Origin: Pseudomonadota bacterium | GTDB taxonomy: Bacteria > Pseudomonadota > Gammaproteobacteria > Thiotrichales > Thiotrichaceae | Assembly (NCBI GenBank): GCA_039797965.1 | Contig: JBDKGX010000001.1 | Span: 18,563-82,562, forward strand | DNA length: 64,000 nt | Direction of reading: 5' to 3' | Shown: positions 4,030-47,671 of the stretch, one piece after another | How positions within the stretch are numbered: the first letter of the stretch is position 1 | Layout of the letters: each line of letters begins with the position of its first letter | The notes under the pieces: generated by a model | Databases searched by the model: none | The model's input: the letters and a program-made list of their open reading frames with translations, nothing else | Told to the model about the DNA's origin: nothing | Translations under genes and position numbers: made by a program

Positions 4030-4782
4030 CTACAGCTTAAAGCCTTTGTGCAATGCCACAATCCCACCAGTCATATTGCGGTAAGTGACGCGTTCAAAGC
4101 CCGCGTTTTCCATCATGCCTTTTAAGGTGTCTTGATCAGGGTGCATACGGATAGATTCGGCTAAGTACTGGTAACTCGCTGCATCATTAGCAATTAATTT
4201 CCCCATAAAGGGGAGTACTTTGAATGAGTACTGGTCATAAATAGGGGCTAAACCTGGCAATACAGGTTTGGAAAACTCCAATACCAATAAGCGCCCACCA
4301 GGCTTAAGTACTCGTAACATAGAGCGCAAAGCAGCCTCTTTATCGGTTACATTCCTCAACCCAAACGCAATGGTAATAATATCAAAGTGATTATCGACAA
4401 AAGGCAAACATTCGGCATTGGCTTGGACAAATTGCACATTGCCACCTAAGCCCATATCAATCAGGCGTCGCTTACCATTAGCAAGCATAGAGGCATTAAT
4501 ATCAGATAACACCACTTCACCCGTATCACCCACAATACGGGCAAATTTTGCGGCTAAATCACCTGTACCTCCCGCTAAATCAAGTACTCGTTGCCCTTTG
4601 CGAGCGCCTGACTCGTCGATAGTAATGCGTTTCCATAAACGATGAATGCCCATCGACATCACATCATTCATCACATCATATTTATCAGCCACCGAGTGAA
4701 AAACGCCCGCTACCTTTTGAGCTTTTTCCGTCACAGGCACCTGTTGAAAACCAAAATGAGTCGTATCTTGCTTATCCATCAT
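4030..4782 (-). CDS. ubiE: Ubiquinone/menaquinone C-methyltransferase
   Basis: [41 protein letters not shown]. Confidence 0.97.
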
Positions 4783-10906: not shown

Positions 10907-11338
10907 TTAGGTACCACGGCAAGTAGCTGGACGATATTTTTTGTCTACAGTACCACTTGTACAAGTCCAAGTTACAGAGCCTTTGGTTACATCGGCTGTT
11001 GGTGTCATAATCAAAGTTGCATTATCTGTTACTTTGCTATTATAAGTAATTGTAATTACACCTGATGCACCCACGGCAACACTTTTTACAGCATTACCTT
11101 TAATATCGGTAGCAGCAGCTAAACCAACATCTGCATTGCTTGTAGGTAAGGCGCCACGATCTGCGAAGAATTCAGTAACACCTAATTTTGCAGCACCTGC
11201 CAAACTTAAACCTTCACCCACATGTGAGCGTTTAGTGTAATCTTGGTAAGCAGGTAAAGCGATCGCTGCTAAAATACCGATGATAGCTACAACGATCATC
11301 AACTCGATTAATGTGAAACCTTTTTGTACATTTTTCAT
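10907..11338 (-). CDS. pilA: Type IVa major pilin
   Basis: QKG|FTLIELMIVVAIIGILAAIA class III signal; C-terminal disulfide loop WTC...TCRGT. Confidence 0.96.
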   Translation of the reverse strand: MKNVQKGFTLIELMIVVAIIGILAAIALPAYQDYTKRSHVGEGLSLAGAAKLGVTEFFADRGALPTSNADVGLAAATDIKGNAVKSVAVGASGVITITYNSKVTDNATLIMTPTADVTKGSVTWTCTSGTVDKKYRPATCRGT

Positions 11339-39676: not shown

Positions 39677-41527
39677 ATGCCCGTTTACCGTTCCCGTACC
39701 TCAACAGGTGGTCGCAATATGGCAGGCGCTCGTGCGCTGTGGCGTGCCACTGGCATGAAAGATGAGGATTTTAGTAAACCTATTATTGCGATTGCGAACT
39801 CCTTTACTCAATTTGTACCAGGTCATGTGCATTTGAAAGATTTGGGGCAATTGGTCGCGCGTGAAATTGAAGCCGCAGGTGGCGTGGCGAAAGAGTTTAA
39901 TACCATTGCTATTGATGACGGTATCGCAATGGGACACAGCGGTATGCTGTATTCCTTACCTTCGCGCGAAGTCATTTCCGATGCGGTCGAGTATATGGTC
40001 AATGCCCATTGTGCCGATGCGATTGTATGTATTTCTAACTGCGACAAAATAACCCCCGGTATGCTCAATGCCGCCATGCGCCTTAACATTCCTGTGGTGT
40101 TTGTGTCAGGTGGCCCCATGGAGTCGGGTAAGGCTTTAATTTCGGGTAAAACCGTTAAGCTTGACTTGATTGATGCAATGGTTTCAGCCGCTAATCCTAA
40201 AGAAACTGACGAGAACGTTGCCAAGATGGAGCGTTCAGCATGCCCAACGTGTGGCTCCTGTTCGGGGATGTTTACGGCTAACTCGATGAACTGTTTAACC
40301 GAAGCCTTAGGTTTGAGTCTACCTGGCAATGGTTCGTTGCTAGCTACTCATGCGGATCGTGAAGAACTTTTCAAGCGTGCGGGACGTGTAGCGGTTGAAC
40401 TCTGTAAGCGTTATTACGAACAAGATGATGACTCTGTATTGCCACGTAATGTTGCGACCTTTGAAGCCTTTGAAAACGCCATGAGTTTGGATATTGCCAT
40501 GGGCGGCTCTACTAATACTGTACTGCACTTATTAGCAGCAGCGCGTGAAGGTAATATCAATTTCACAGTAGCTGATATTGATCGTCTAAGCCGTAAAGTA
40601 CCTAATCTTAGTAAAGTGGCACCCGCTACCCAGCTTTATCATATGGAAGATGTACACCGTGCAGGCGGTATTATGGGTTTACTGGGCGAGTTAGATCGGG
40701 CAGGATTGATTCATCGTGAGTGTAAAACGGTACATAGTGCGACATTAGGCGATGCTTTAGATCAATGGGATATTATGCGTAATCCTAGTGAAGCGGTACA
40801 AACCTTCTTTAAAGCCGCTCCCGGTAATGTTCCTACTCAAGTAGCTTTTTCGCAAAACAAGCGTTGGGATAGTCTCGATAATGACCGTGCGAATGGCTGT
40901 ATTCGCAGTAAAGAGCATGCGTACTCTCAAGACGGTGGCTTAGCCGTATTGTTTGGCAATATTGCTGAAGAAGGTTGTGTGGTGAAAACGGCGGGTGTTG
41001 ATGCGAGTATTCTAACGTTTTCAGGGCCTGCTCGTATTTTTGAATCGCAAGATGATGCAGTCGCCGCGATTTTAAATGATCAAATTCAAGCGGGTGATGT
41101 CGTACTCATTCGTTATGAAGGCCCACGTGGTGGCCCTGGTATGCAAGAGATGCTTTATCCGACGTCATATTTGAAATCAAAAGGTTTGGGTAAGGTGTGC
41201 GCCTTGATTACCGATGGGCGTTTTTCTGGCGGTACTTCAGGATTATCCATTGGTCACGTATCACCGGAAGCTGCCGAAGGGGGCGCCATTGGTTTAGTGC
41301 AAGAAGGCGATATGATCGATATTGATATTCCTAACCGCACTATGAATTTACGGGTTGAGATGGCAGAGCTGGCTAAACGTCGTGATGAGATGAATACCAA
41401 AGGCAATAAAGCGTGGAAACCTGTTAATCGTGAGCGCTATGTCAGCGCTGCACTAAAAGCCTATGCCGCTATGACCACCTCAGCGTCACATGGCGCGGTG
41501 CGTGATGTATCGCAATTGGAGCGCTAA
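39677..41527 (+). CDS. ilvD: Dihydroxy-acid dehydratase
   Basis: [37 protein letters not shown]; AGGAG RBS before 39677. Confidence 0.97.
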
Positions 41528-41529
41528 GC

Positions 41530-42030
41530 GTGAATGAAATAGATGAATTACCCGATGAGTTTAGCCGCCAAAAGCGTAAAAACGAAGTCGAGGCGTGGCA
41601 ACAAGCAGGTGAGCGCTTAATCAAATTAAGCGACCCACAACTTAAGCAACTTGATTTGCCGGAGGAAATTTATGATGCAGTGGTTGAGGCTAAACGCTTA
41701 ACCGCTAATGGTGCCATTCGCCGCCAACGCCAATATATCGGGCGTTTAATGCGTGAAGATGAAGACCCTGATGGCATTGTAGCTCGTCTACAGGCATTGG
41801 AAGGTAATGCCCGTAATCAAGTAGCTAAAATGCATGTGATTGAGCGTTGGCGTGATCGTCTAATAGCTGACGAAAATGTTTTGGGTGAGTTGATTGAAAT
41901 GTATCCTAATGCAGATATGCAACGGTTACGTTCATTAATTCGTAACGCTCATAAAGAAATTGCCAACAATAAGCCACCTAAAAGTAGTCGAGAATTATTC
42001 GCAGCATTACGTGAATTAATTTTGGATTAA
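41530..42030 (+). CDS. yjgA: Ribosome biogenesis factor YjgA/DarP
   Basis: SRQKRK, RRQRQYIGRLMR, ERWRDRL, LRSLIRNA..E. Confidence 0.9.
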   Translation: MNEIDELPDEFSRQKRKNEVEAWQQAGERLIKLSDPQLKQLDLPEEIYDAVVEAKRLTANGAIRRQRQYIGRLMREDEDPDGIVARLQALEGNARNQVAKMHVIERWRDRLIADENVLGELIEMYPNADMQRLRSLIRNAHKEIANNKPPKSSRELFAALRELILD

Positions 42031-42039
42031 CTCTAAAGA

Positions 42040-42076
42040 TCAAGCCACCTAGATTAATATACCTTAGGTGGCTTGA
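42040..42076 (+). terminator. Hairpin/terminator after yjgA
   Basis: tcaagccaccta / taggtggcttga, 12-bp perfect stem. Confidence 0.7.
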
Positions 42077-42347
42077 ATCATAGCCTTTTATCTCATTAAA
42101 CTAATAAATAAAACCTTTTGTCTTAGTGAGTTTAGATTTCGTCATATAAGTAATCGCCCACTTATACTAGGTTCTTTAGTATGAAATGGATGGGTTAATA
42201 AAAAGTTGGAAACCTTTTATTAGTTACCAATCGTTAATCATATATATAGAACTGCATATTGTTTGATAATGTATTTTATTTATACCTATAAATATCTTGT
42301 TAATAAATGTAAGTAAACATTATCAATGTTGTATAAGGAGATATTCC

Positions 42348-42899
42348 ATGAGTTTAAATATCAACGGCTTTTCAAGCAGTAATGCTTATCCTATTACGAA
42401 TAATTTTACGACTTCGTATAGTAGTCCCTTCTTAGGATTTAATACTACAGGCTATTGGCCTGTGGGTAATTACAACTCTGCTTTGTCTAGTATTGCGGGC
42501 AATACGCTAAGCAGTATTTCAGGTTATCCATCGTTTACCTACACGGCTCCAACGTTCTCTTATACCCCTGTTGAATTGCCTGATGCGAGTTTGCTAATGG
42601 AGCAATCCTCGAATCAGTCGAGTCAGGAAGGTAATGGTTTGTTTGGTTCATTGTTAGGTGGGCTTGCACAAGGTGTACACTCTTTAGCTGAATATACGGT
42701 TGGAGCTTTGGGTCTACAATCGATCTTTGGTCCGCTGGTTGATGACCCAATTATTCACCCATTGCTATGGGATCCGTTATCTCGTATTACAGGCTATGAT
42801 GTAAGTAAGCATCCTAGTGGTGTTGATGACGTGTCAGATCCACTTGGGATACGGGGTGGGGATAGCACTGATGGTGGTCTTTTAGGTGGACTATTATAA
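42348..42899 (+). CDS. Leaderless Ser/Gly-rich, Cys-free hypothetical protein
   Basis: AAGGAG RBS then MSLNINGFSSSNAYP...; LFGSLLGGL and GGLLGGLL motifs. Confidence 0.75.
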   Translation: MSLNINGFSSSNAYPITNNFTTSYSSPFLGFNTTGYWPVGNYNSALSSIAGNTLSSISGYPSFTYTAPTFSYTPVELPDASLLMEQSSNQSSQEGNGLFGSLLGGLAQGVHSLAEYTVGALGLQSIFGPLVDDPIIHPLLWDPLSRITGYDVSKHPSGVDDVSDPLGIRGGDSTDGGLLGGLL

Positions 42900-43084
42900 T
42901 ATAAGCCTGTCAAAAACAGCTTAATTAATATTAGGGCTTTACAGGAGTCCATTGATAAAGTGGGCTCTTGTTTATTCATTATTTTATAGGTTTGAGTAAA
43001 ATAAAGTTTTTTATTAAGAAGTACTCTTCTGCATTAAAGAAATTCAATTTTTTATTTGATAGGTTTAGTAAAATTACTAGACTT

Positions 43085-43117
43085 AAAAAAGCCGCTGTAC
43101 AATTTGAGCGGCTTTTT
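43085..43117 (-). terminator. Intrinsic (probably bidirectional) terminator
   Basis: aaaaagccgct / agcggcttttt with A/T tracts on both sides. Confidence 0.8.
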
Positions 43118-43135
43118 ATGAGTAATGAGTGTTAA

Positions 43136-43756
43136 TTACATAGTATGACCAGCGTGACTGGTACTAGTCGATGTACTAGTTGAGGGTATCAAACTCGCAG
43201 AGTTAGTAGATAATGCTGTAGGAGTACTAATATTAGTGCCACTAGAAGTTAAGCCAGATAATAAACTGCTGGCACCTCCTAATAAATCATTTAATCCCGA
43301 ACCCCCATTTATACCCAAGCTATTAGCCAAACTACTAATCGTTGATAATAAGTCACTATTTAATGCGCCCCCTGATCCAGTAGTCATAGTACTAGCTGGA
43401 GCACCATAATAGTATTGTGGCATTGCAAAGGAATAACCAGAATAAGGGTAATTCGCAGTATAGGTAGGTAAACCGTACCCAAAACTACCCATACTCATAG
43501 GATTATAATAGGGCATGGTATAACCACCGCTATAGGCTATATTAGGTTGTCCACCTATCCCACCTAAATAGCCACTGATTAAATTATTGAGACTAGCATT
43601 AAGACCATTAAGTAATGAGGCATTATTAGAGGTGCTAGTATTAAAACTTTGTGTTTGAGTAGTCGGGCGCGTGGTAGTTGTAGGACGAGTAGTGGTGCTA
43701 GTTGTATTGCCGCTGCCACCTAAACCACCTAATAAGCTTCTAAGAATAAAAGTCAT
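43136..43756 (-). CDS. Leaderless Ser/Thr/Gly/Tyr-rich, Cys-free hypothetical protein
   Basis: GGGAG RBS then MTFILRSLLGGLGG; TTTRP repeats; Y/G/P-rich core; followed by a terminator. Confidence 0.75.
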   Translation of the reverse strand: MTFILRSLLGGLGGSGNTTSTTTRPTTTTRPTTQTQSFNTSTSNNASLLNGLNASLNNLISGYLGGIGGQPNIAYSGGYTMPYYNPMSMGSFGYGLPTYTANYPYSGYSFAMPQYYYGAPASTMTTGSGGALNSDLLSTISSLANSLGINGGSGLNDLLGGASSLLSGLTSSGTNISTPTALSTNSASLIPSTSTSTSTSHAGHTM

Positions 43757-44101
43757 TTTGGGATCTCCCTTCCAAAAGTTGACGAATCTGTCCATGGATT
43801 AACTAGTTGCTAACACTTTGCTGAGTTTTAGTGGCTAGTCAGTGTGTTCAATCCTATATAACTCATTTACTACTCGAGAAAACTTGCCCGATAGTTGGTA
43901 GTAATTCTGAGATACCTCTACCTCAATCCCATTAAATTTATCAGGTTAAGCAAATCCATTAATGAGTTTAATTGACTATCTTAAAATTAATATGGCTGGT
44001 GATAAACCCCCAATAACTATGGCCAAATATTACTAAAGTAACTTTTTCCTGAGCTTTTATAATGAAATATTTCTATACTGGTTAGCGGCTTAAATTAGGA
44101 A

Positions 44102-45319
44102 ATGGGTGCAATCATGTGGTGCAGGTGGTTATTAGTAACTCTATTTTTGACATTACCCATTCAAGCATGGGCAGGCGAGCGTATTGCTTTAGTGGTGGGG
44201 ATTAATCGCTATAACGTGCAAAGCAATTTAGTCAATACTCATCAAGATGTGCAACACATCGTAGAGGCTTTCGAAGCCAATGGTATTAAAGTTATTAATA
44301 AAGATACTTTATATGACCTGACTTTTGTTCAACTCGAAAACGCTTTTCGTCAATTAGTTGATCAAGCTGTAACAGCTGACGAAGTATATGTTTATTTTGC
44401 AGGGCATGGTTTACAGCACAACAATTCTACCTATTTATTAGCATCCGATACGCCTCTTTATACAGGTGAAATGCCCCAGAGTGCTTCGCTATTGGATTCA
44501 TGGTTGAATTTATTACAGAGTGCGAATCCAAATGCACAACGGGTATTTTTCATAGATGCTTGTCGAGATAATCCGCTCAACCAAATAAACTATGTAACGC
44601 CCTCTTTTATGGGCATAGTTAAACGAGATCAAGGGACGGTGGTAGTATATTCCACGGCACGAGGTCAAACCGTTAAGGACAATAATCCCTTCGCTAAAGA
44701 GTTAGCCAACTATTTTAAGTTATCGCCTTATTCTTCAGTGTCTGAAATTATTGATGCCACTACTATTGCGGTTAACTATTTAACTAAAAAAACACAACTG
44801 ATTGATAGACAGGGTGGGTTAGGCAGGAAAATATGCCCATTACGTTGTTTAGCTCAAACACCTAAACCGCCCATAACTATACCGGCAGGCTGTATCGATG
44901 ATGCTTGTTTAGCGACACCATTAACGGTTGATTCTTTTCCTATTAGCACTAATGAGTTTAAAGCGCTCTTTAACGCCAATCCTCGCCCGATGGATTCCGA
45001 TAATAATAAGGGCTGCATGGTATATGAAAATAATGCGTGGAAGATTAAATATGACCTTAACTGGTATACTCCAAACCTCAATTATCCTAATGTTGCACAC
45101 TGTTTGAGTGCTAATGATATTCAAGCATTGGCAAATTGGTACACTAGTACTTTAAATAGGGGTTATTACCGTCTGCCTAATGCTCAAGAGCAATATAAAA
45201 TAGCCGCTTATTTTAAGCGAAAAGTAGCTAAAGAGCAGTTGGAGCAGTGTGAGAAAATGGATGATAATGTGACCTGCTATGGTGATCCACAATTTGGGGT
45301 TTATTTAGTCCGCGAATAA
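44102..45319 (+). CDS. Exported caspase-like (peptidase C14) protein with a degenerate FGE-sulfatase-like C-terminal domain
   Basis: Signal peptide ...LPIQAWA; RIALVVGINRY, YFAGHG and IDACRDNP (His-Cys dyad); C-term YRLPNAQE...GVYLVRE; start may be 44114. Confidence 0.85.
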   Translation: MGAIMWCRWLLVTLFLTLPIQAWAGERIALVVGINRYNVQSNLVNTHQDVQHIVEAFEANGIKVINKDTLYDLTFVQLENAFRQLVDQAVTADEVYVYFAGHGLQHNNSTYLLASDTPLYTGEMPQSASLLDSWLNLLQSANPNAQRVFFIDACRDNPLNQINYVTPSFMGIVKRDQGTVVVYSTARGQTVKDNNPFAKELANYFKLSPYSSVSEIIDATTIAVNYLTKKTQLIDRQGGLGRKICPLRCLAQTPKPPITIPAGCIDDACLATPLTVDSFPISTNEFKALFNANPRPMDSDNNKGCMVYENNAWKIKYDLNWYTPNLNYPNVAHCLSANDIQALANWYTSTLNRGYYRLPNAQEQYKIAAYFKRKVAKEQLEQCEKMDDNVTCYGDPQFGVYLVRE

Positions 45320-45343
45320 GCTCCCCCTATCAGGAGTTTCCTC

Positions 45344-45937
45344 ATGTTTAAGCCGTCCGATTCGGACTGCCGCGTATGGCTGCACGGCTATTTAACCCAT
45401 GATCGTACTAGTACTTTACAGCTTGCTAAACTGATTAAAGTACTAGTAAAGCAATTTCATTATGAAAGTACTCGCCTAACTGAAGTTGAGGTTGAGGAAG
45501 TAGCTCAAGAAGTATTAATAAAAATCTTTCAGTCAGGGCATACCTTACGCAGCCATTGTCCTGCGTGGATTCGCAAGGTTGTCTATCACACCTGCATAGA
45601 TTGTCTGCGCCAACGCAAAAAAAACGGGGTGGAGCCTTACAAGTTAGTTGATCAATCCGTCGATGCTGATAATGACGAGTTTGTTATTGAACCCAGCAAT
45701 GAGCACGAATTAACACCCGAACAACTAGTGAGTTTGGAGCAATGTTTAGAACTCGTACTGGATCATATTCGACGGGGTAAGGCAGGTGAGAGCGATATGC
45801 ACTTATTAAAAGGGGTAGCCCAAGAATTGGATTATGCAGAATTAGCTGCACAGGTAGGGCGTACCAAAGCCGCTGTTACCAATCGCCTATCTGAACTACG
45901 CAAGCTTATGCAGCAATTACGGGAGACGTTATGCTAA
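45344..45937 (+). CDS. ECF-type sigma-70 factor
   Basis: Region 2 EEVAQEVLIKI...WIRKVVYHTCIDCLR; region 4 LDYAELAAQVGRTKAAVTNRLSELR; AGGAG RBS. Confidence 0.82.
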   Translation: MFKPSDSDCRVWLHGYLTHDRTSTLQLAKLIKVLVKQFHYESTRLTEVEVEEVAQEVLIKIFQSGHTLRSHCPAWIRKVVYHTCIDCLRQRKKNGVEPYKLVDQSVDADNDEFVIEPSNEHELTPEQLVSLEQCLELVLDHIRRGKAGESDMHLLKGVAQELDYAELAAQVGRTKAAVTNRLSELRKLMQQLRETLC

Positions 45938-46635
45938 CACCGAACGACACTTCTGAGCGTATATCCTTTAAGGTATGGGTCAATGAGGGTGATGCCAGTA
46001 CTACACTGACGCCTGAGCAACAAGCGTTACAACAGTACTTAATATGGCAAGCCGCTAATGAGCAGGCAAAAGCAATGTCTGATGCTGAGGTCGAAACTAC
46101 CCTTGCTGCGGTTTATAAACGTTTAGGCATTCAACAGGAAATTTTATCTGCAGTAGCTGATACTACTCCGCAAAGCTGGTGGGAACGTTTGGGGTTTGCT
46201 AATTGGGTTACTCAACCGATGTGGATAGCCAGCACAGCTATGTTAATGATTGCAGGTATTAGTACAGTACTGATTTTACAACTTCGTCCCCATAGTGATG
46301 GAGAGGTTGGGCGTGAGTCGGTATTAACCCGCGGTGCTAGTGTTAGTACTTCTACTAAGAGTACTCCGCCTAATACAGCTGCTTTACCTCGTTATGAGCG
46401 TATAGTGACTAATGTTACACAAGCGACTCTAGAGTTAGAGCGTAATCTCATTGCGGTTCATTTTGATGTAAAAGTCCAAGCGCTAGAAGGGCAAGATAAA
46501 CTGTTAATTATTCGAGCGCCGAACGCACCGTTTTCCCCCAGTATGATACAAGTACTTCAATACCATCAGCTCAGTGAGTGGATAACAACCCCTAACACGA
46601 CGATTCAATTGCATATAAAGCCTCGTCAGCCCTAA
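45931..46635 (+). CDS. Putative single-pass membrane anti-sigma factor
   Basis: Overlaps the sigma stop by 7 nt; cytoplasmic helical N-domain, SWWERL, one TM (WIASTAMLMIAGISTVLIL), extracytoplasmic domain. Confidence 0.65.
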   Translation: MLTPNDTSERISFKVWVNEGDASTTLTPEQQALQQYLIWQAANEQAKAMSDAEVETTLAAVYKRLGIQQEILSAVADTTPQSWWERLGFANWVTQPMWIASTAMLMIAGISTVLILQLRPHSDGEVGRESVLTRGASVSTSTKSTPPNTAALPRYERIVTNVTQATLELERNLIAVHFDVKVQALEGQDKLLIIRAPNAPFSPSMIQVLQYHQLSEWITTPNTTIQLHIKPRQP

Positions 46636-46671
46636 CATAAAGCTCATTTGATCCAGTACGTGAGTTAAATT

Positions 46672-47088
46672 ATGAGCATGACTTTAGAGCGTGAAGCTTT
46701 AGCACCCAAAGGAACTTTATTACTACGAACGGTGGCTATGCCTGCTGATACCAACCCCAATGGTGATATTTTCGGTGGTTGGATTTTGTCACAGATGGAT
46801 ATAGCAGGCGGCATTATGGCGAAAGACATGGCGCGGGGGCGAGTGGCGACTATTGCCGTGGATGCGATGAAGTTTATTCAACCTGTAAAAGTAGGTGATG
46901 TTGTGTGTTGCTATGGGGACATAGCACGGGTGGGGCATACCTCTATTACATTACATTTAGAAACGTGGGTGTTACCTGTATGGCGAGATAATGAAGTACG
47001 TCAACCCTTTAGAGTCACTGAAGCTGATTTTACTTATGTCGCTATTGATGACAATGGCAAAAAGCGTGTCTTACCACAATCCCAATAA
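46672..47088 (+). CDS. yciA: Acyl-CoA thioesterase (hotdog fold)
   Basis: LRTVAMPADTNPNGDIFGGWILSQMDIAG. Confidence 0.9.
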   Translation: MSMTLEREALAPKGTLLLRTVAMPADTNPNGDIFGGWILSQMDIAGGIMAKDMARGRVATIAVDAMKFIQPVKVGDVVCCYGDIARVGHTSITLHLETWVLPVWRDNEVRQPFRVTEADFTYVAIDDNGKKRVLPQSQ

Positions 47089-47164
47089 ACCGATTAAGGT
47101 CGCTTGATGTTGGTCTTCAGGACAGCTAAATTAACCCTTTGTTTGCTAAAAAAGGTCGTTTAAT

Positions 47165-47671
47165 GTGAGTAGTCAACGGATGCTCTTTACGCTTTGCCGT
47201 CTCGGTACTACGGGGTTAGTAGCCACACTGCTAGTAGCTTGTGGTGCGGTCTCTCCTAATGCCCCTAGCGCTGGTTTACCGTCCTTAGCGGGTGGGGTTG
47301 CAGTGACTGCCCTGACCAAAGCACCGTGGAAATTAGTGACCATCCAAGAGGGCAGTAGCTTACCTTCCGCACGGCTTAAAGCGGGTATTCCTGCTAATCA
47401 TATGCGCCTATCTTTAACCTCTGACCAAGTAAGCTTTGTAGGCGGCTGTAATCGTACGTCTGGCAAAGTACTGCTTAGCACCCAAGGCCAAATTAAAATA
47501 ACCGAGCTGATGAGTACTGAAATGGCTTGTGCACCGGAGCTAATGCTTGCCGATACTGAAATGGCAGACTATTTAATGTCAATGGCGCATTACGAAGTCA
47601 ATGATAAGCGCCTAAAACTCTCTGATAGTGATACTACTTTATCCTTTGTCACCACCACACTGACTAAATAA
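47165..47671 (+). CDS. META-domain (HslJ-like) lipoprotein
   Basis: Lipobox LLVAC; WKLV, GGCN, STEMAC. Confidence 0.8.
   Translation: MSSQRMLFTLCRLGTTGLVATLLVACGAVSPNAPSAGLPSLAGGVAVTALTKAPWKLVTIQEGSSLPSARLKAGIPANHMRLSLTSDQVSFVGGCNRTSGKVLLSTQGQIKITELMSTEMACAPELMLADTEMADYLMSMAHYEVNDKRLKLSDSDTTLSFVTTTLTK

What the first reader, a model, noticed from the sequence alone, without database searches (positions are those of the whole stretch)
44102..46635. Exported caspase-like protease + ECF sigma + membrane anti-sigma: candidate caspase-triggered trans-envelope signalling system
Seen: three tightly linked co-directional genes (24-nt gap, 7-nt overlap). Gene 1 has a signal peptide and an intact C14 His-Cys dyad (AGHG, DAC). 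Gene 2 has sigma regions 2 and 4 only. Gene 3 is single-pass, and just outside the membrane carries an exposed linker GRESVLTR|GASVSTSTKST before a folded domain. Established: ECF sigmas are released by regulated proteolysis of co-encoded anti-sigmas (DegS/RseP on RseA); bacterial ortho/metacaspases cut after basic residues; the caspase-like Csx29 of type III-E CRISPR cleaves a sigma-binding protein. Inference: the exported caspase is a dedicated site-1 protease cutting the anti-sigma at R|G, gated by its C-terminal lectin-like domain. No CRISPR array is present in the window.
Basis: partly seen in the sequence, partly recalled or inferred. Interest (0 to 1): 0.8.

Follow-up and report, generated by a model that had tools for sequence, protein, structure and literature searches.

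The report
Exported caspase beside sigma/anti-sigma pair
A sulfur bacterium (Thiofilum) carries a genus-specific three-gene unit: an exported arginine-type caspase-like protease, a stress-type sigma factor and a membrane protein that is probably the factor's inhibitor. The protease may switch the sigma factor on by cutting the inhibitor, but nothing shows the cut, and caspase-plus-sigma operons have been noted in print since 2012.

Summary
Three co-directional genes lie at 44102-46635, with a 24-nt gap and a 7-nt overlap. Gene 1 is an exported Peptidase_C14 protein with an intact His102/Cys154 dyad. Its S1 pocket is acidic and MALT1-like, which predicts cutting after Arg. Gene 2 is a divergent ECF sigma. 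Gene 3 is a single-pass orphan protein with a disordered linker outside the membrane.

New here:
- The trio is confined to Thiofilum. Gene 3 has no relative among 1.84 billion representative proteins.
- The sigma has two paralogs in the same genome. Each is followed by a single-pass protein with a periplasmic FGE-sulfatase domain.
- The caspase's Cys-rich C-terminus is a truncated FGE-like domain. It is most like those partner domains.
- Arg134 in the gene-3 linker is invariant in 7 sequences, inside a conserved 8-residue island. The following Gly is not conserved.
- The sigma family has four invariant cysteines.

Against the reading: 77 of 80 loci with related caspases elsewhere have no ECF sigma nearby. 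All conservation comes from one genus. Cleavage and sigma binding are untested.

Metacaspase-sigma operons (PMC3501461) and the DdvA CHAT anti-sigma (PMC11506125) are in print, and this scan has noted similar trios on other DNA. Verdict: a new variant of a known kind, with the site-1-protease reading at about one in three.

The parts
44102..45319 (+). Gene 1: exported orthocaspase-type Peptidase_C14 protein, 405 aa
   Evidence: PF00656 E 1.3e-19. The best solved relative by sequence is the MALT1 paracaspase, E 2e-9. Orthologs in G001 and G002 are 39-45% identical. It is the only PF00656 hit in this 86%-complete genome.
44102..44173 (+). Signal peptide (residues 1-24, cleavage after AWA)
   Evidence: Read directly from the sequence. 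The hydrophobic core and the small-x-small site are kept in the orthologs. No signal-peptide predictor was available.
44180..44779 (+). Caspase (p20-type) domain with His102 (44405-44407) and Cys154 (44561-44563)
   Evidence: Dyad invariant in 5 of 5 orthologs. Asp152 and Asp193 are invariant and Asp49 is kept in 4 of 5. These align to MALT1 Asp462, Glu500 and Asp365.
44885..45205 (+). Truncated FGE-sulfatase-like (C-type-lectin-fold) region within the Cys-rich C-terminal domain (residues 250-405, 8 invariant Cys)
   Evidence: hhalign to the FGE domains of this genome's P0039 and P0040: prob 92-93%, E 2-6e-7, 104-105 columns. Pfam does not detect it in the window's copy; one ortholog scores 13.2 bits against a cut-off of 23.3. 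The AF2 model of this part is poor.
45344..45937 (+). Gene 2: divergent ECF-type sigma factor, 197 aa, with four family-invariant cysteines (Cys9, Cys72, Cys134 and the C-terminal Cys197)
   Evidence: Orthologs are 70-87% identical.
45931..46635 (+). Gene 3: single-pass orphan membrane protein, candidate anti-sigma, 234 aa
   Evidence: The 7-nt overlap with the sigma gene is kept in 3 species. There are no relatives outside Thiofilum. The nearest named ESM Atlas clusters are zf-HC2 anti-sigmas, at 0.89-0.90.
46219..46284 (+). Transmembrane helix (residues 97-118)
46321..46344 (+). Conserved island [VE][LIV][TM]R[GDS][AV][ST][VT] in the disordered periplasmic linker; the Arg134 codon is 46330-46332
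   Evidence: Arg134 is invariant in 7 sequences (about 5 independent). Mean top-residue frequency is 0.77 in the island against 0.52 for the whole linker. pLDDT is below 50.
46387..46632 (+). Small periplasmic alpha/beta domain (beta-alpha-beta-beta-alpha-beta)
   Evidence: AF2 pLDDT is 85-91. Only generic fold matches were found (best Z 5.7, half-glyoxalase module).

Best explanation
The locus encodes a Thiofilum-specific ECF sigma and its single-pass anti-sigma, co-transcribed with an exported protease.

Shown:
- The pair is a diverged paralog of ECF pairs in Thiotrichaceae whose membrane partner carries a periplasmic FGE-sulfatase sensor domain.
- The protease is a C14 protease predicted to cut after Arg. 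It carries a truncated FGE-like domain.

Inferred mechanism:
- The protease's FGE-like domain binds a periplasmic or envelope ligand, or the anti-sigma's small outer domain.
- The protease then cuts the anti-sigma's disordered linker after the invariant Arg134, 16 residues outside the membrane.
- The short stub becomes a substrate for RseP, and the sigma factor is released.

The sigma's target genes are unknown. The neighbouring low-complexity protein genes are candidates only.
For: - Tight, conserved operon geometry: 24-nt gap and 7-nt overlap in three species.
- The protease is exported and its dyad is intact.
- Its S1 pocket is acidic and aligns to the Arg anchors of MALT1.
- Arg134 is the only invariant charged residue in a disordered, poorly conserved linker, and it sits in an 8-residue conserved island.
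- P0041 and P0042 are the sigma's only tblastn matches in its own genome at E<=0.01. Each is followed by a single-pass protein with a periplasmic FGE-sulfatase domain, E 1e-59.
- The caspase C-terminus matches those FGE domains best and over the longest stretch. The sensor fold of the paralogous anti-sigmas therefore sits here on the protease.
- The linkers of the four Thiofilum FGE-type partners contain no Arg.
- RseP is present in all three genomes.
- The idea that a caspase-family domain acts as site-1 protease on an anti-sigma linker has been proposed in print for DdvA (PMC11506125).
Against: - No cleavage or binding was tested.
- All conservation comes from one genus, about 5 independent sequences, so synteny may only reflect descent.
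- The P1' Gly is not conserved.
- The N-terminus of gene 3 has no recognised anti-sigma domain. There is no zinc motif, no Pfam or NCBIfam hit, the AF2 confidence is low, and the match to the paralogous partners' N-termini is marginal (E 2.6e-4, prob 42%).
- Only 3 of 80 loci with the nearest caspase relatives in other genomes, all three Dyadobacter, have an ECF gene within 6 kb. That is about background.
- Caspase-FGE fusions are common among those relatives, so the FGE-like tail need not come from an anti-sigma (PMC3501461).
- One unrelated FGE domain scores as high as the paralogs' domains.
- A later check within this scan priced the same protease-cuts-anti-sigma idea at 9% for CHAT trios.
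Confidence: 0.33

Rival explanations
1. The sigma and gene 3 are a normal ECF/anti-sigma pair, but the caspase is an output or a merely co-expressed periplasmic protease. It could serve envelope protein processing, cell death or defence. Site-1 cleavage, if there is any, is done by another protease (DegS- or Prc-type), or the anti-sigma is inactivated without proteolysis.
For: In characterised systems site-1 proteases are usually not encoded in the sigma operon (established knowledge of DegS and PrsW). The caspase is the first gene of the unit, which fits a product under sigma control. The nearest caspase relatives elsewhere work without ECF neighbours. Caspase-FGE proteins are a widespread stand-alone architecture (PMC3501461).
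Against: This reading does not explain the invariant Arg island in the anti-sigma linker. It also does not explain why the FGE-like domain resembles the sensor domains of the paralogous anti-sigmas.
Confidence: 0.3
2. There is no functional link. The caspase gene simply sits upstream of an ECF pair in this genus and has been inherited with it.
For: Conservation is limited to three closely related species plus metagenome relatives of the same genus. There is no wider co-occurrence.
Against: The 24-nt gap on the same strand, with no conserved terminator, argues for co-transcription. Fast co-divergence of the caspase and gene 3 (39-56% identity) against 70-87% for the sigma fits interacting periplasmic partners. 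The FGE-like link also argues against mere adjacency.
Confidence: 0.15
3. The caspase protein is a non-cutting co-sensor. It would bind the anti-sigma's outer domain through its FGE-like domain and shield or expose it, much as RseB does for RseA, while its protease activity is aimed at other substrates.
For: Two folded periplasmic domains of unknown partner are encoded side by side. FGE-type domains serve as sensor modules in the paralogs.
Against: The full catalytic apparatus is conserved. There is no evidence of binding.
Confidence: 0.1
4. The sigma is controlled mainly through its own four invariant cysteines (a metal or redox switch linking the N-terminal extension, sigma-2, sigma-4 and the C-terminus), and gene 3 is not an anti-sigma.
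For: Cys9, Cys72, Cys134 and Cys197 are invariant across 11 sigmas of three genera, at 26-29% identity between subfamilies. Cys-based control has been proposed or shown for ECF238 (CorE) and ECF57 (PMC8999054). Gene 3 and the FGE-type partners lack a zinc motif.
Against: All three sigma paralogs are followed by a single-pass membrane protein: gene 3 overlaps its sigma gene by 7 nt, and the two FGE-type partners start 9-17 nt downstream of theirs. This is the classic anti-sigma position. The two modes of control are not exclusive.
Confidence: 0.1

Closest known systems
Metacaspase operons containing sigma-70-family factors (Asplund-Samuelsson et al. 2012, PMC3501461)
   Same: A Peptidase_C14 gene in a predicted operon with a sigma factor. 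That paper also catalogues metacaspase-FGE-sulfatase fusions (33 sequences).
   Different: It reports a genomic pattern only, in Myxococcales, Ralstonia and Fibrobacter, and proposes no mechanism. The Thiofilum genes are not detectably orthologous to those. Here the caspase is exported, and its FGE part is truncated and below the Pfam threshold.
DdvS/DdvA of Myxococcus xanthus (PMC11506125, PMC6061681)
   Same: An ECF sigma with a single-pass anti-sigma. A periplasmic caspase-family domain faces a flexible juxtamembrane linker and is proposed to act as the site-1 protease ahead of RseP.
   Different: In DdvA the protease is a TPR-CHAT domain fused to the anti-sigma, the N-terminus is a zinc-binding ASD, and the regulon is a CBASS/CRISPR island. 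Here the protease is a separate C14 protein, and there is no TPR, no zinc motif and no defence genes nearby.
RpoE-RseA-DegS/RseP regulated intramembrane proteolysis
   Same: Overall logic: a periplasmic site-1 cut in the anti-sigma, then an RseP cut. RseP is present.
   Different: DegS is a PDZ serine protease that is not encoded in the rpoE operon and cuts after a hydrophobic residue. Here the candidate is a Cys protease predicted to cut after Arg.
Type III-E CRISPR Craspase (Cas7-11, Csx29, Csx30, CASP-sigma; PMC10028731)
   Same: A caspase-family protease linked to release of an ECF-like sigma.
   Different: Craspase is cytoplasmic, RNA-guided, CHAT-type and CRISPR-associated. None of that applies here.
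MALT1 paracaspase and bacterial orthocaspases
   Same: The best sequence match among solved structures (E 2e-9). The His-Cys dyad and three acidic P1-Arg anchors are conserved.
   Different: MALT1 is a cytosolic eukaryotic scaffold protease. Gene 1 is exported and carries a Cys-rich FGE-like tail.
ECF pairs whose anti-sigma-like partner carries a periplasmic FGE-sulfatase domain
   Same: The same sigma subfamily (26-29% identity, all ending in LC, four shared Cys) and the same partner topology.
   Different: In those pairs the FGE domain is on the membrane partner and no protease gene is attached.

Membership tests
Peptidase_C14 (clan CD caspase family) | Match to the family profile above the curated cut-off | tested here: met
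   PF00656 scores 71.2 bits against a cut-off of 21.4, E 1.3e-19.
Peptidase_C14 (clan CD caspase family) | Catalytic His-Cys dyad | tested here: met
   His102 and Cys154 are invariant in 5 orthologs.
Para-/meta-/orthocaspase type (basic P1 specificity) | Acidic residues at the S1 positions that anchor P1-Arg in MALT1 (Asp365, Asp462, Glu500) | tested here: met
   Asp49 (4 of 5), Asp152 (5 of 5) and Asp193 (5 of 5) align to them (PMC4626109). This rests on alignment only; no activity assay was done.
ECF (group 4) sigma-70 factors | Regions sigma-2 and sigma-4 only, about 200 aa | tested here: met
   The protein is 197 aa. Region 2 and region 4 matches are the only sigma domains found.
ECF (group 4) sigma-70 factors | Score above the curated family cut-offs | tested here: inconclusive
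   Sigma70_r2 scores 22.5 against 24, and TIGR02937 scores 33.5 against 42.9. Paralog P0041 passes for region 2 (29.3 bits) and matches gene 2 at E 5e-23.
Class I / zinc-binding anti-sigma factors (ASD, zf-HC2, RskA, RseA_N) | HxxxCxxC zinc motif or a profile match to an ASD family | tested here: not met
   No Pfam or NCBIfam hit. There is no invariant Cys or His motif in residues 1-95.
Class I / zinc-binding anti-sigma factors (ASD, zf-HC2, RskA, RseA_N) | Helical ASD fold that binds sigma-2 and sigma-4 | tested here: inconclusive
   AF2 gives two or three helices at pLDDT below 60. ESM Atlas look-alikes include zf-HC2 clusters at 0.89-0.90. No complex prediction was available.
Anti-sigma factors in general | Gene translationally coupled downstream of the sigma gene; single-pass, N-terminus inside | tested here: met
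   The 7-nt overlap is kept in 3 species, and there is one TM helix. The same layout is seen in the paralogous pairs.
Regulated intramembrane proteolysis cascade | Site-2 protease (RseP, Peptidase_M50) in the genome | tested here: met
   PF02163 matches at E about 1e-69 in G000, G001 and G002.
Regulated intramembrane proteolysis cascade | Signal-dependent site-1 cleavage of the anti-sigma's periplasmic part | not testable with these tools
   This needs biochemistry. Only the conserved Arg134 island is seen.
DdvA-type TPR-CHAT anti-sigma | TPR-CHAT domain fused to the anti-sigma | tested here: not met
   The protease is a separate gene of the C14 type. No TPR or CHAT hits were found.
Type III-E Craspase module | CRISPR array or Cas7-11 neighbourhood, and a CASP-sigma equivalog score | tested here: not met
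   No CRISPR-like repeats in the window. NF041236 scores 29.2 bits against a cut-off of 100. The flanks are ilvD, darP, yciA and a META-domain gene.
FGE-sulfatase (SUMF1-like) domain, for the C-terminus of gene 1 | Profile match over the whole roughly 255-residue domain | tested here: inconclusive
   Pfam finds nothing in the window's copy, and 13.2 bits against a cut-off of 23.3 in one ortholog. hhalign to this genome's FGE domains gives prob 92-93% over 104-105 columns, which is only the first half of the domain.

The most novel reading that the evidence does not exclude
An exported caspase-family protease, gated by its own FGE-like ligand-binding domain, is the dedicated site-1 protease of an orphan anti-sigma factor and cuts it after one invariant arginine. 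This would be a split version of the FGE-sensor anti-sigmas found as paralogs in the same genome. The sigma factor it releases would carry a second, built-in four-cysteine metal or redox switch.
Probability: 0.25. Interest if true: 0.7.

Novelty: new variant of a known kind. Interest (0 to 1): 0.45.

Why it matters
No caspase-family protease has yet been shown to perform the first cut that frees an ECF sigma factor. For DdvA the idea is explicit but unproven. This trio is small: a 405-aa soluble protease, a 234-aa substrate with one candidate Arg, and a 197-aa sigma. It also has natural controls in the same genome, namely paralogous pairs that keep the FGE sensor on the anti-sigma and lack both a protease gene and a linker Arg. 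That makes the question directly testable in vitro. The limits are that the system is confined to one little-studied genus, its signal and regulon are unknown, and similar caspase or CHAT plus sigma modules have been noted often, so a specialist would be interested rather than astonished.

Tried and rejected
1. Distant relatives of gene 3. A word-based search and an exhaustive profile search of 1.84 billion representatives found only Thiofilum proteins, so no comparative test beyond the genus was possible.
2. Fold of the gene-3 outer domain. VIA-align (best Z 5.7, half-glyoxalase module) and Foldseek (no E<=0.001) gave only generic beta-alpha-beta matches.
3. AF2 model of gene 1. The C-terminal domain was too poorly modelled (pLDDT below 50) for a fold search.
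4. Wider caspase-ECF linkage. 80 loci of caspase relatives were screened with an iterated ECF HMM. Only three Dyadobacter loci had an ECF gene.
5. Autoregulated ECF promoter upstream of the caspase gene. No convincing motif is shared by the three species. The conserved motif upstream of the neighbouring low-complexity genes (TTATCC..N16..CGTC) is absent upstream of the trio, has no other full match in G000, G001 or G002, and differs from the conserved sequence upstream of the paralogous sigmas. No regulon could therefore be assigned.
6. Empty-site comparison around darP in other genera. Synteny is not kept.
7. The low-complexity genes as exclusive partners of the trio. Rejected, because their conserved C-terminal domain also occurs in genera that lack the trio.
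8. Rfam. Nothing above threshold in 41500-47200.
That all three report the same longest-contig length (14576) is only indirect evidence of linkage.
10. The ECF reclassification paper (PMC7826278) does not mention caspase or FGE in its main text, and its supplements are not held.
Full report
**What is there**

The window is G000:C1:18563-82562 of an 86%-complete genome. Names attached to close homologs place it in the genus Thiofilum. Three + strand ORFs occupy 44102-45319, 45344-45937 and 45931-46635. The gap is 24 nt and the overlap is 7 nt (ATGCTAA). The flanks are housekeeping genes: ilvD and darP upstream, and a yciA-type thioesterase and a META-domain gene downstream. No CRISPR-like repeats occur in the window.

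**Gene 1**

- Pfam Peptidase_C14 covers residues 27-226 (E 1.3e-19, 71.2 bits against a cut-off of 21.4).
- The N-terminus has a hydrophobic core ending in AWA, and the mature protein starts at the first caspase strand. This layout is kept in the orthologs.
- His102 (FAGHG) and Cys154 (IDACR) are invariant in five orthologs.
- By sequence, the closest solved structure is the MALT1 paracaspase (E 2e-9). In that alignment Asp49, Asp152 and Asp193 fall on MALT1 Asp365, Asp462 and Glu500. Those are the residues that anchor the P1 arginine (PMC4626109). Asp152 and Asp193 are invariant, and Asp49 is kept in 4 of 5. Cutting after Arg or Lys is therefore a fair prediction, though no assay supports it.
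- The C-terminal 155 residues hold eight invariant cysteines, which fits an oxidising compartment.
- Pfam does not recognise this tail. Profile comparison aligns residues 262-368 with the first half of the FGE-sulfatase domains of two proteins from the same genome (prob 92-93%, E 2-6e-7, 104-105 columns).
- Of nine FGE domains from unrelated genomes, one scored as high over fewer columns and the rest scored lower.
The domain is truncated, however, and AF2 modelled it poorly.

**Gene 2**

- It has only sigma regions 2 and 4, and both fall below the curated cut-offs.
- Its only tblastn matches in its own genome at E<=0.01 are two paralogs, P0041 on contig C55 and P0042 on contig C101. They are 26-28% identical over the full length (E 5e-23 and 1e-17).
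- P0041 passes the Pfam region-2 cut-off, which secures the ECF assignment.
- Across 11 members from three genera, four cysteines are invariant: Cys9, Cys72, Cys134 and the very last residue, Cys197.

**Gene 3**

- It has one TM helix (residues 97-118), a disordered linker (119-152, pLDDT below 50) and a confidently modelled beta-alpha-beta-beta-alpha-beta domain (150-234, pLDDT about 88).
- That domain has only generic structural neighbours.
- The family is an orphan. An exhaustive profile search of 1.84 billion representatives found three clusters, all of them Thiofilum-type, plus one marginal hit.
- No anti-sigma profile matches it, and there is no zinc motif.
- The case that it is the anti-sigma is contextual:
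  - The 7-nt overlap with the sigma gene is kept in three species.
  - Both paralogous sigmas are followed by a single-pass protein with the same layout.
  - The N-terminal profile match to those partners is marginal (E 2.6e-4, prob 42%, 38 columns).
  - The nearest named ESM Atlas clusters are zf-HC2 anti-sigmas, at 0.89-0.90.

**The paralogs**

P0039 and P0040, the partners of the paralogous sigmas, have about 75-90 cytoplasmic residues, one TM helix and a full periplasmic FGE-sulfatase domain (E 1e-59 and 5.5e-58). The same pair occurs in another genus of the family (G006 and G013). It was not found at E<=1e-12 in the 297 other Gammaproteobacteria sampled.

So the FGE-sensor pair is the wider, probably older form. 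The caspase-linked trio is a Thiofilum-only derivative. In it the membrane partner has a small unrelated outer domain, and an FGE-like module sits on a separate protease.

This is the best new argument that the protease belongs to the signalling unit. It is weakened by one fact: caspase-FGE fusions are common among the nearest caspase relatives (at least six of 80 loci; 33 sequences in PMC3501461). The tail may therefore be inherited from that lineage.

**The proposed cut site**

In seven sequences (about five independent) Arg134 is invariant, and it is the only invariant charged residue in the linker. It lies in an island, [VE][LIV][TM]R[GDS][AV][ST][VT], whose mean conservation is 0.77 against 0.52 for the linker as a whole. 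The residue after the Arg is G, D or S, so 'R|G' as such is not conserved.

A cut there would leave a 16-residue stub outside the membrane. RseP is present in all three genomes. The linkers of the four Thiofilum FGE-type partners contain no arginine, which fits the idea but is a small sample.

**Limits**

- The trio is syntenic in all three Thiofilum species genomes. Metagenome homologs of all three proteins report the same longest-contig lengths. All of this is one genus, so descent alone could explain it.
- I screened 80 loci with the closest caspase relatives from other genomes, using an ECF HMM built from this genome's sigmas and iterated. Only three Dyadobacter loci had an ECF gene within 6 kb, which is about background.
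- No promoter motif for the sigma could be established.

**What is known**

- Asplund-Samuelsson et al. 2012 reported metacaspase operons that share sigma-70 factors, in four of the five M. xanthus metacaspase operons and in other Deltaproteobacteria, Ralstonia and Fibrobacter. They also reported metacaspase-FGE-sulfatase fusions (PMC3501461).
- A review notes that CHAT-domain proteins are conserved next to ECF54 sigmas (PMC8999054).
[quoted passage not shown] Its authors propose, but have not shown, an S1P-like self-cut ahead of RseP (PMC11506125).
- This scan has itself noted many sigma, anti-sigma and CHAT or caspase modules on other DNA. A later check priced the protease-cuts-anti-sigma step at 9% for one of them.

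**Verdict**

The locus is a new variant of a known kind: a separate, exported, Arg-type C14 protease with an FGE-like tail, an orphan anti-sigma candidate, and a four-cysteine sigma. I put the site-1-protease mechanism at about one in three. Its main rival, at about the same odds, is that the caspase is an output or a co-expressed periplasmic protease. Interest is moderate at 0.45. The system is compact and testable and has built-in paralog controls, but it is narrow in distribution and not conceptually unprecedented.

Noticed in passing
window 45344-45937 (Cys codons at 45368, 45557, 45743, 45932); paralogs at L103:2249-2866 and L104:3931-4515: Four cysteines are invariant in all 11 sigmas of this family, across three genera and at 26-29% identity between subfamilies. 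They lie in the N-terminal extension, in sigma-2 just before the conserved Trp, at the start of sigma-4 and at the very last residue. The membrane partners have no zinc motif. This suggests a metal or redox site on the sigma itself, as proposed for ECF57 and ECF238.
   Followed up: partly
G000 C55:11248-13011 (L103:2249-4012) and C101:6680-8514 (L104:2681-4515): Two paralogous ECF sigma genes, each followed by a single-pass protein with a full periplasmic FGE-sulfatase domain. The same pair occurs in G001, G002 and a second genus of the family (G006, G013). I found no printed description of this pairing in the papers searched.
   Followed up: partly
window 42348-42899 (+) and 43136-43756 (-); L004 4957-6683; L005 10149-13097: Two or three genes for Ser/Thr/Gly/Tyr-rich low-complexity proteins lie directly upstream of the trio in all three species. 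Most start MTFNL...GG.G, have no obvious signal peptide and have no Pfam hit. One type has a conserved C-terminal domain (motif DDPIIHPLLWDP) that also occurs in genera without the trio. Their function is unknown. They are possible structural or sulfur-globule-like proteins and possible sigma targets.
   Followed up: partly
window 42119-42143; L004 about 4755-4780; L005 upstream of each of the three low-complexity genes: A conserved motif of about 70 nt, starting TTATCCTAATGAATGTTAGGTTCGTC, lies about 200 nt upstream of the low-complexity genes in three species. The window's copy is TGTCTTAGTGAGTTTAGATTTCGTC. It has no other full match in G000, G001 or G002 and no Rfam match. It could be an ECF-type promoter (CGTC as the -10) or a leader element.
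   Followed up: partly
L005 about 11050-11150 (G002): The terminator hairpin and the TTGCTAAAATTTCAAGG stretch that precede the caspase gene in T. flexile are duplicated between two of the low-complexity genes. This suggests a local segmental duplication.
   Followed up: no
L035 3099-11758 (Dyadobacter jiangsuensis; also L068, L077): A co-directional cluster: a papain-like protease with DUF4384, an unknown gene, a C14 caspase (417 aa), a DUF4384-like protein, an ECF-like sigma, an unknown 291-aa protein and a PKD/beta-propeller protein. This is an independent case of a C14 caspase near an ECF sigma.
   Followed up: partly
L004 10013-11173 (G001): Two adjacent minus-strand ORFs between yciA and the META gene look like a split IS200/IS605-type TnpB (RuvC-like part plus a zinc-ribbon tail). 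They are absent from the window's genome at this spot.
   Followed up: no
window 45318-45339: A weak hairpin in the 24-nt gap would pair with the sigma gene's Shine-Dalgarno sequence. It is not conserved in the two other species, so it is probably chance.
   Followed up: yes
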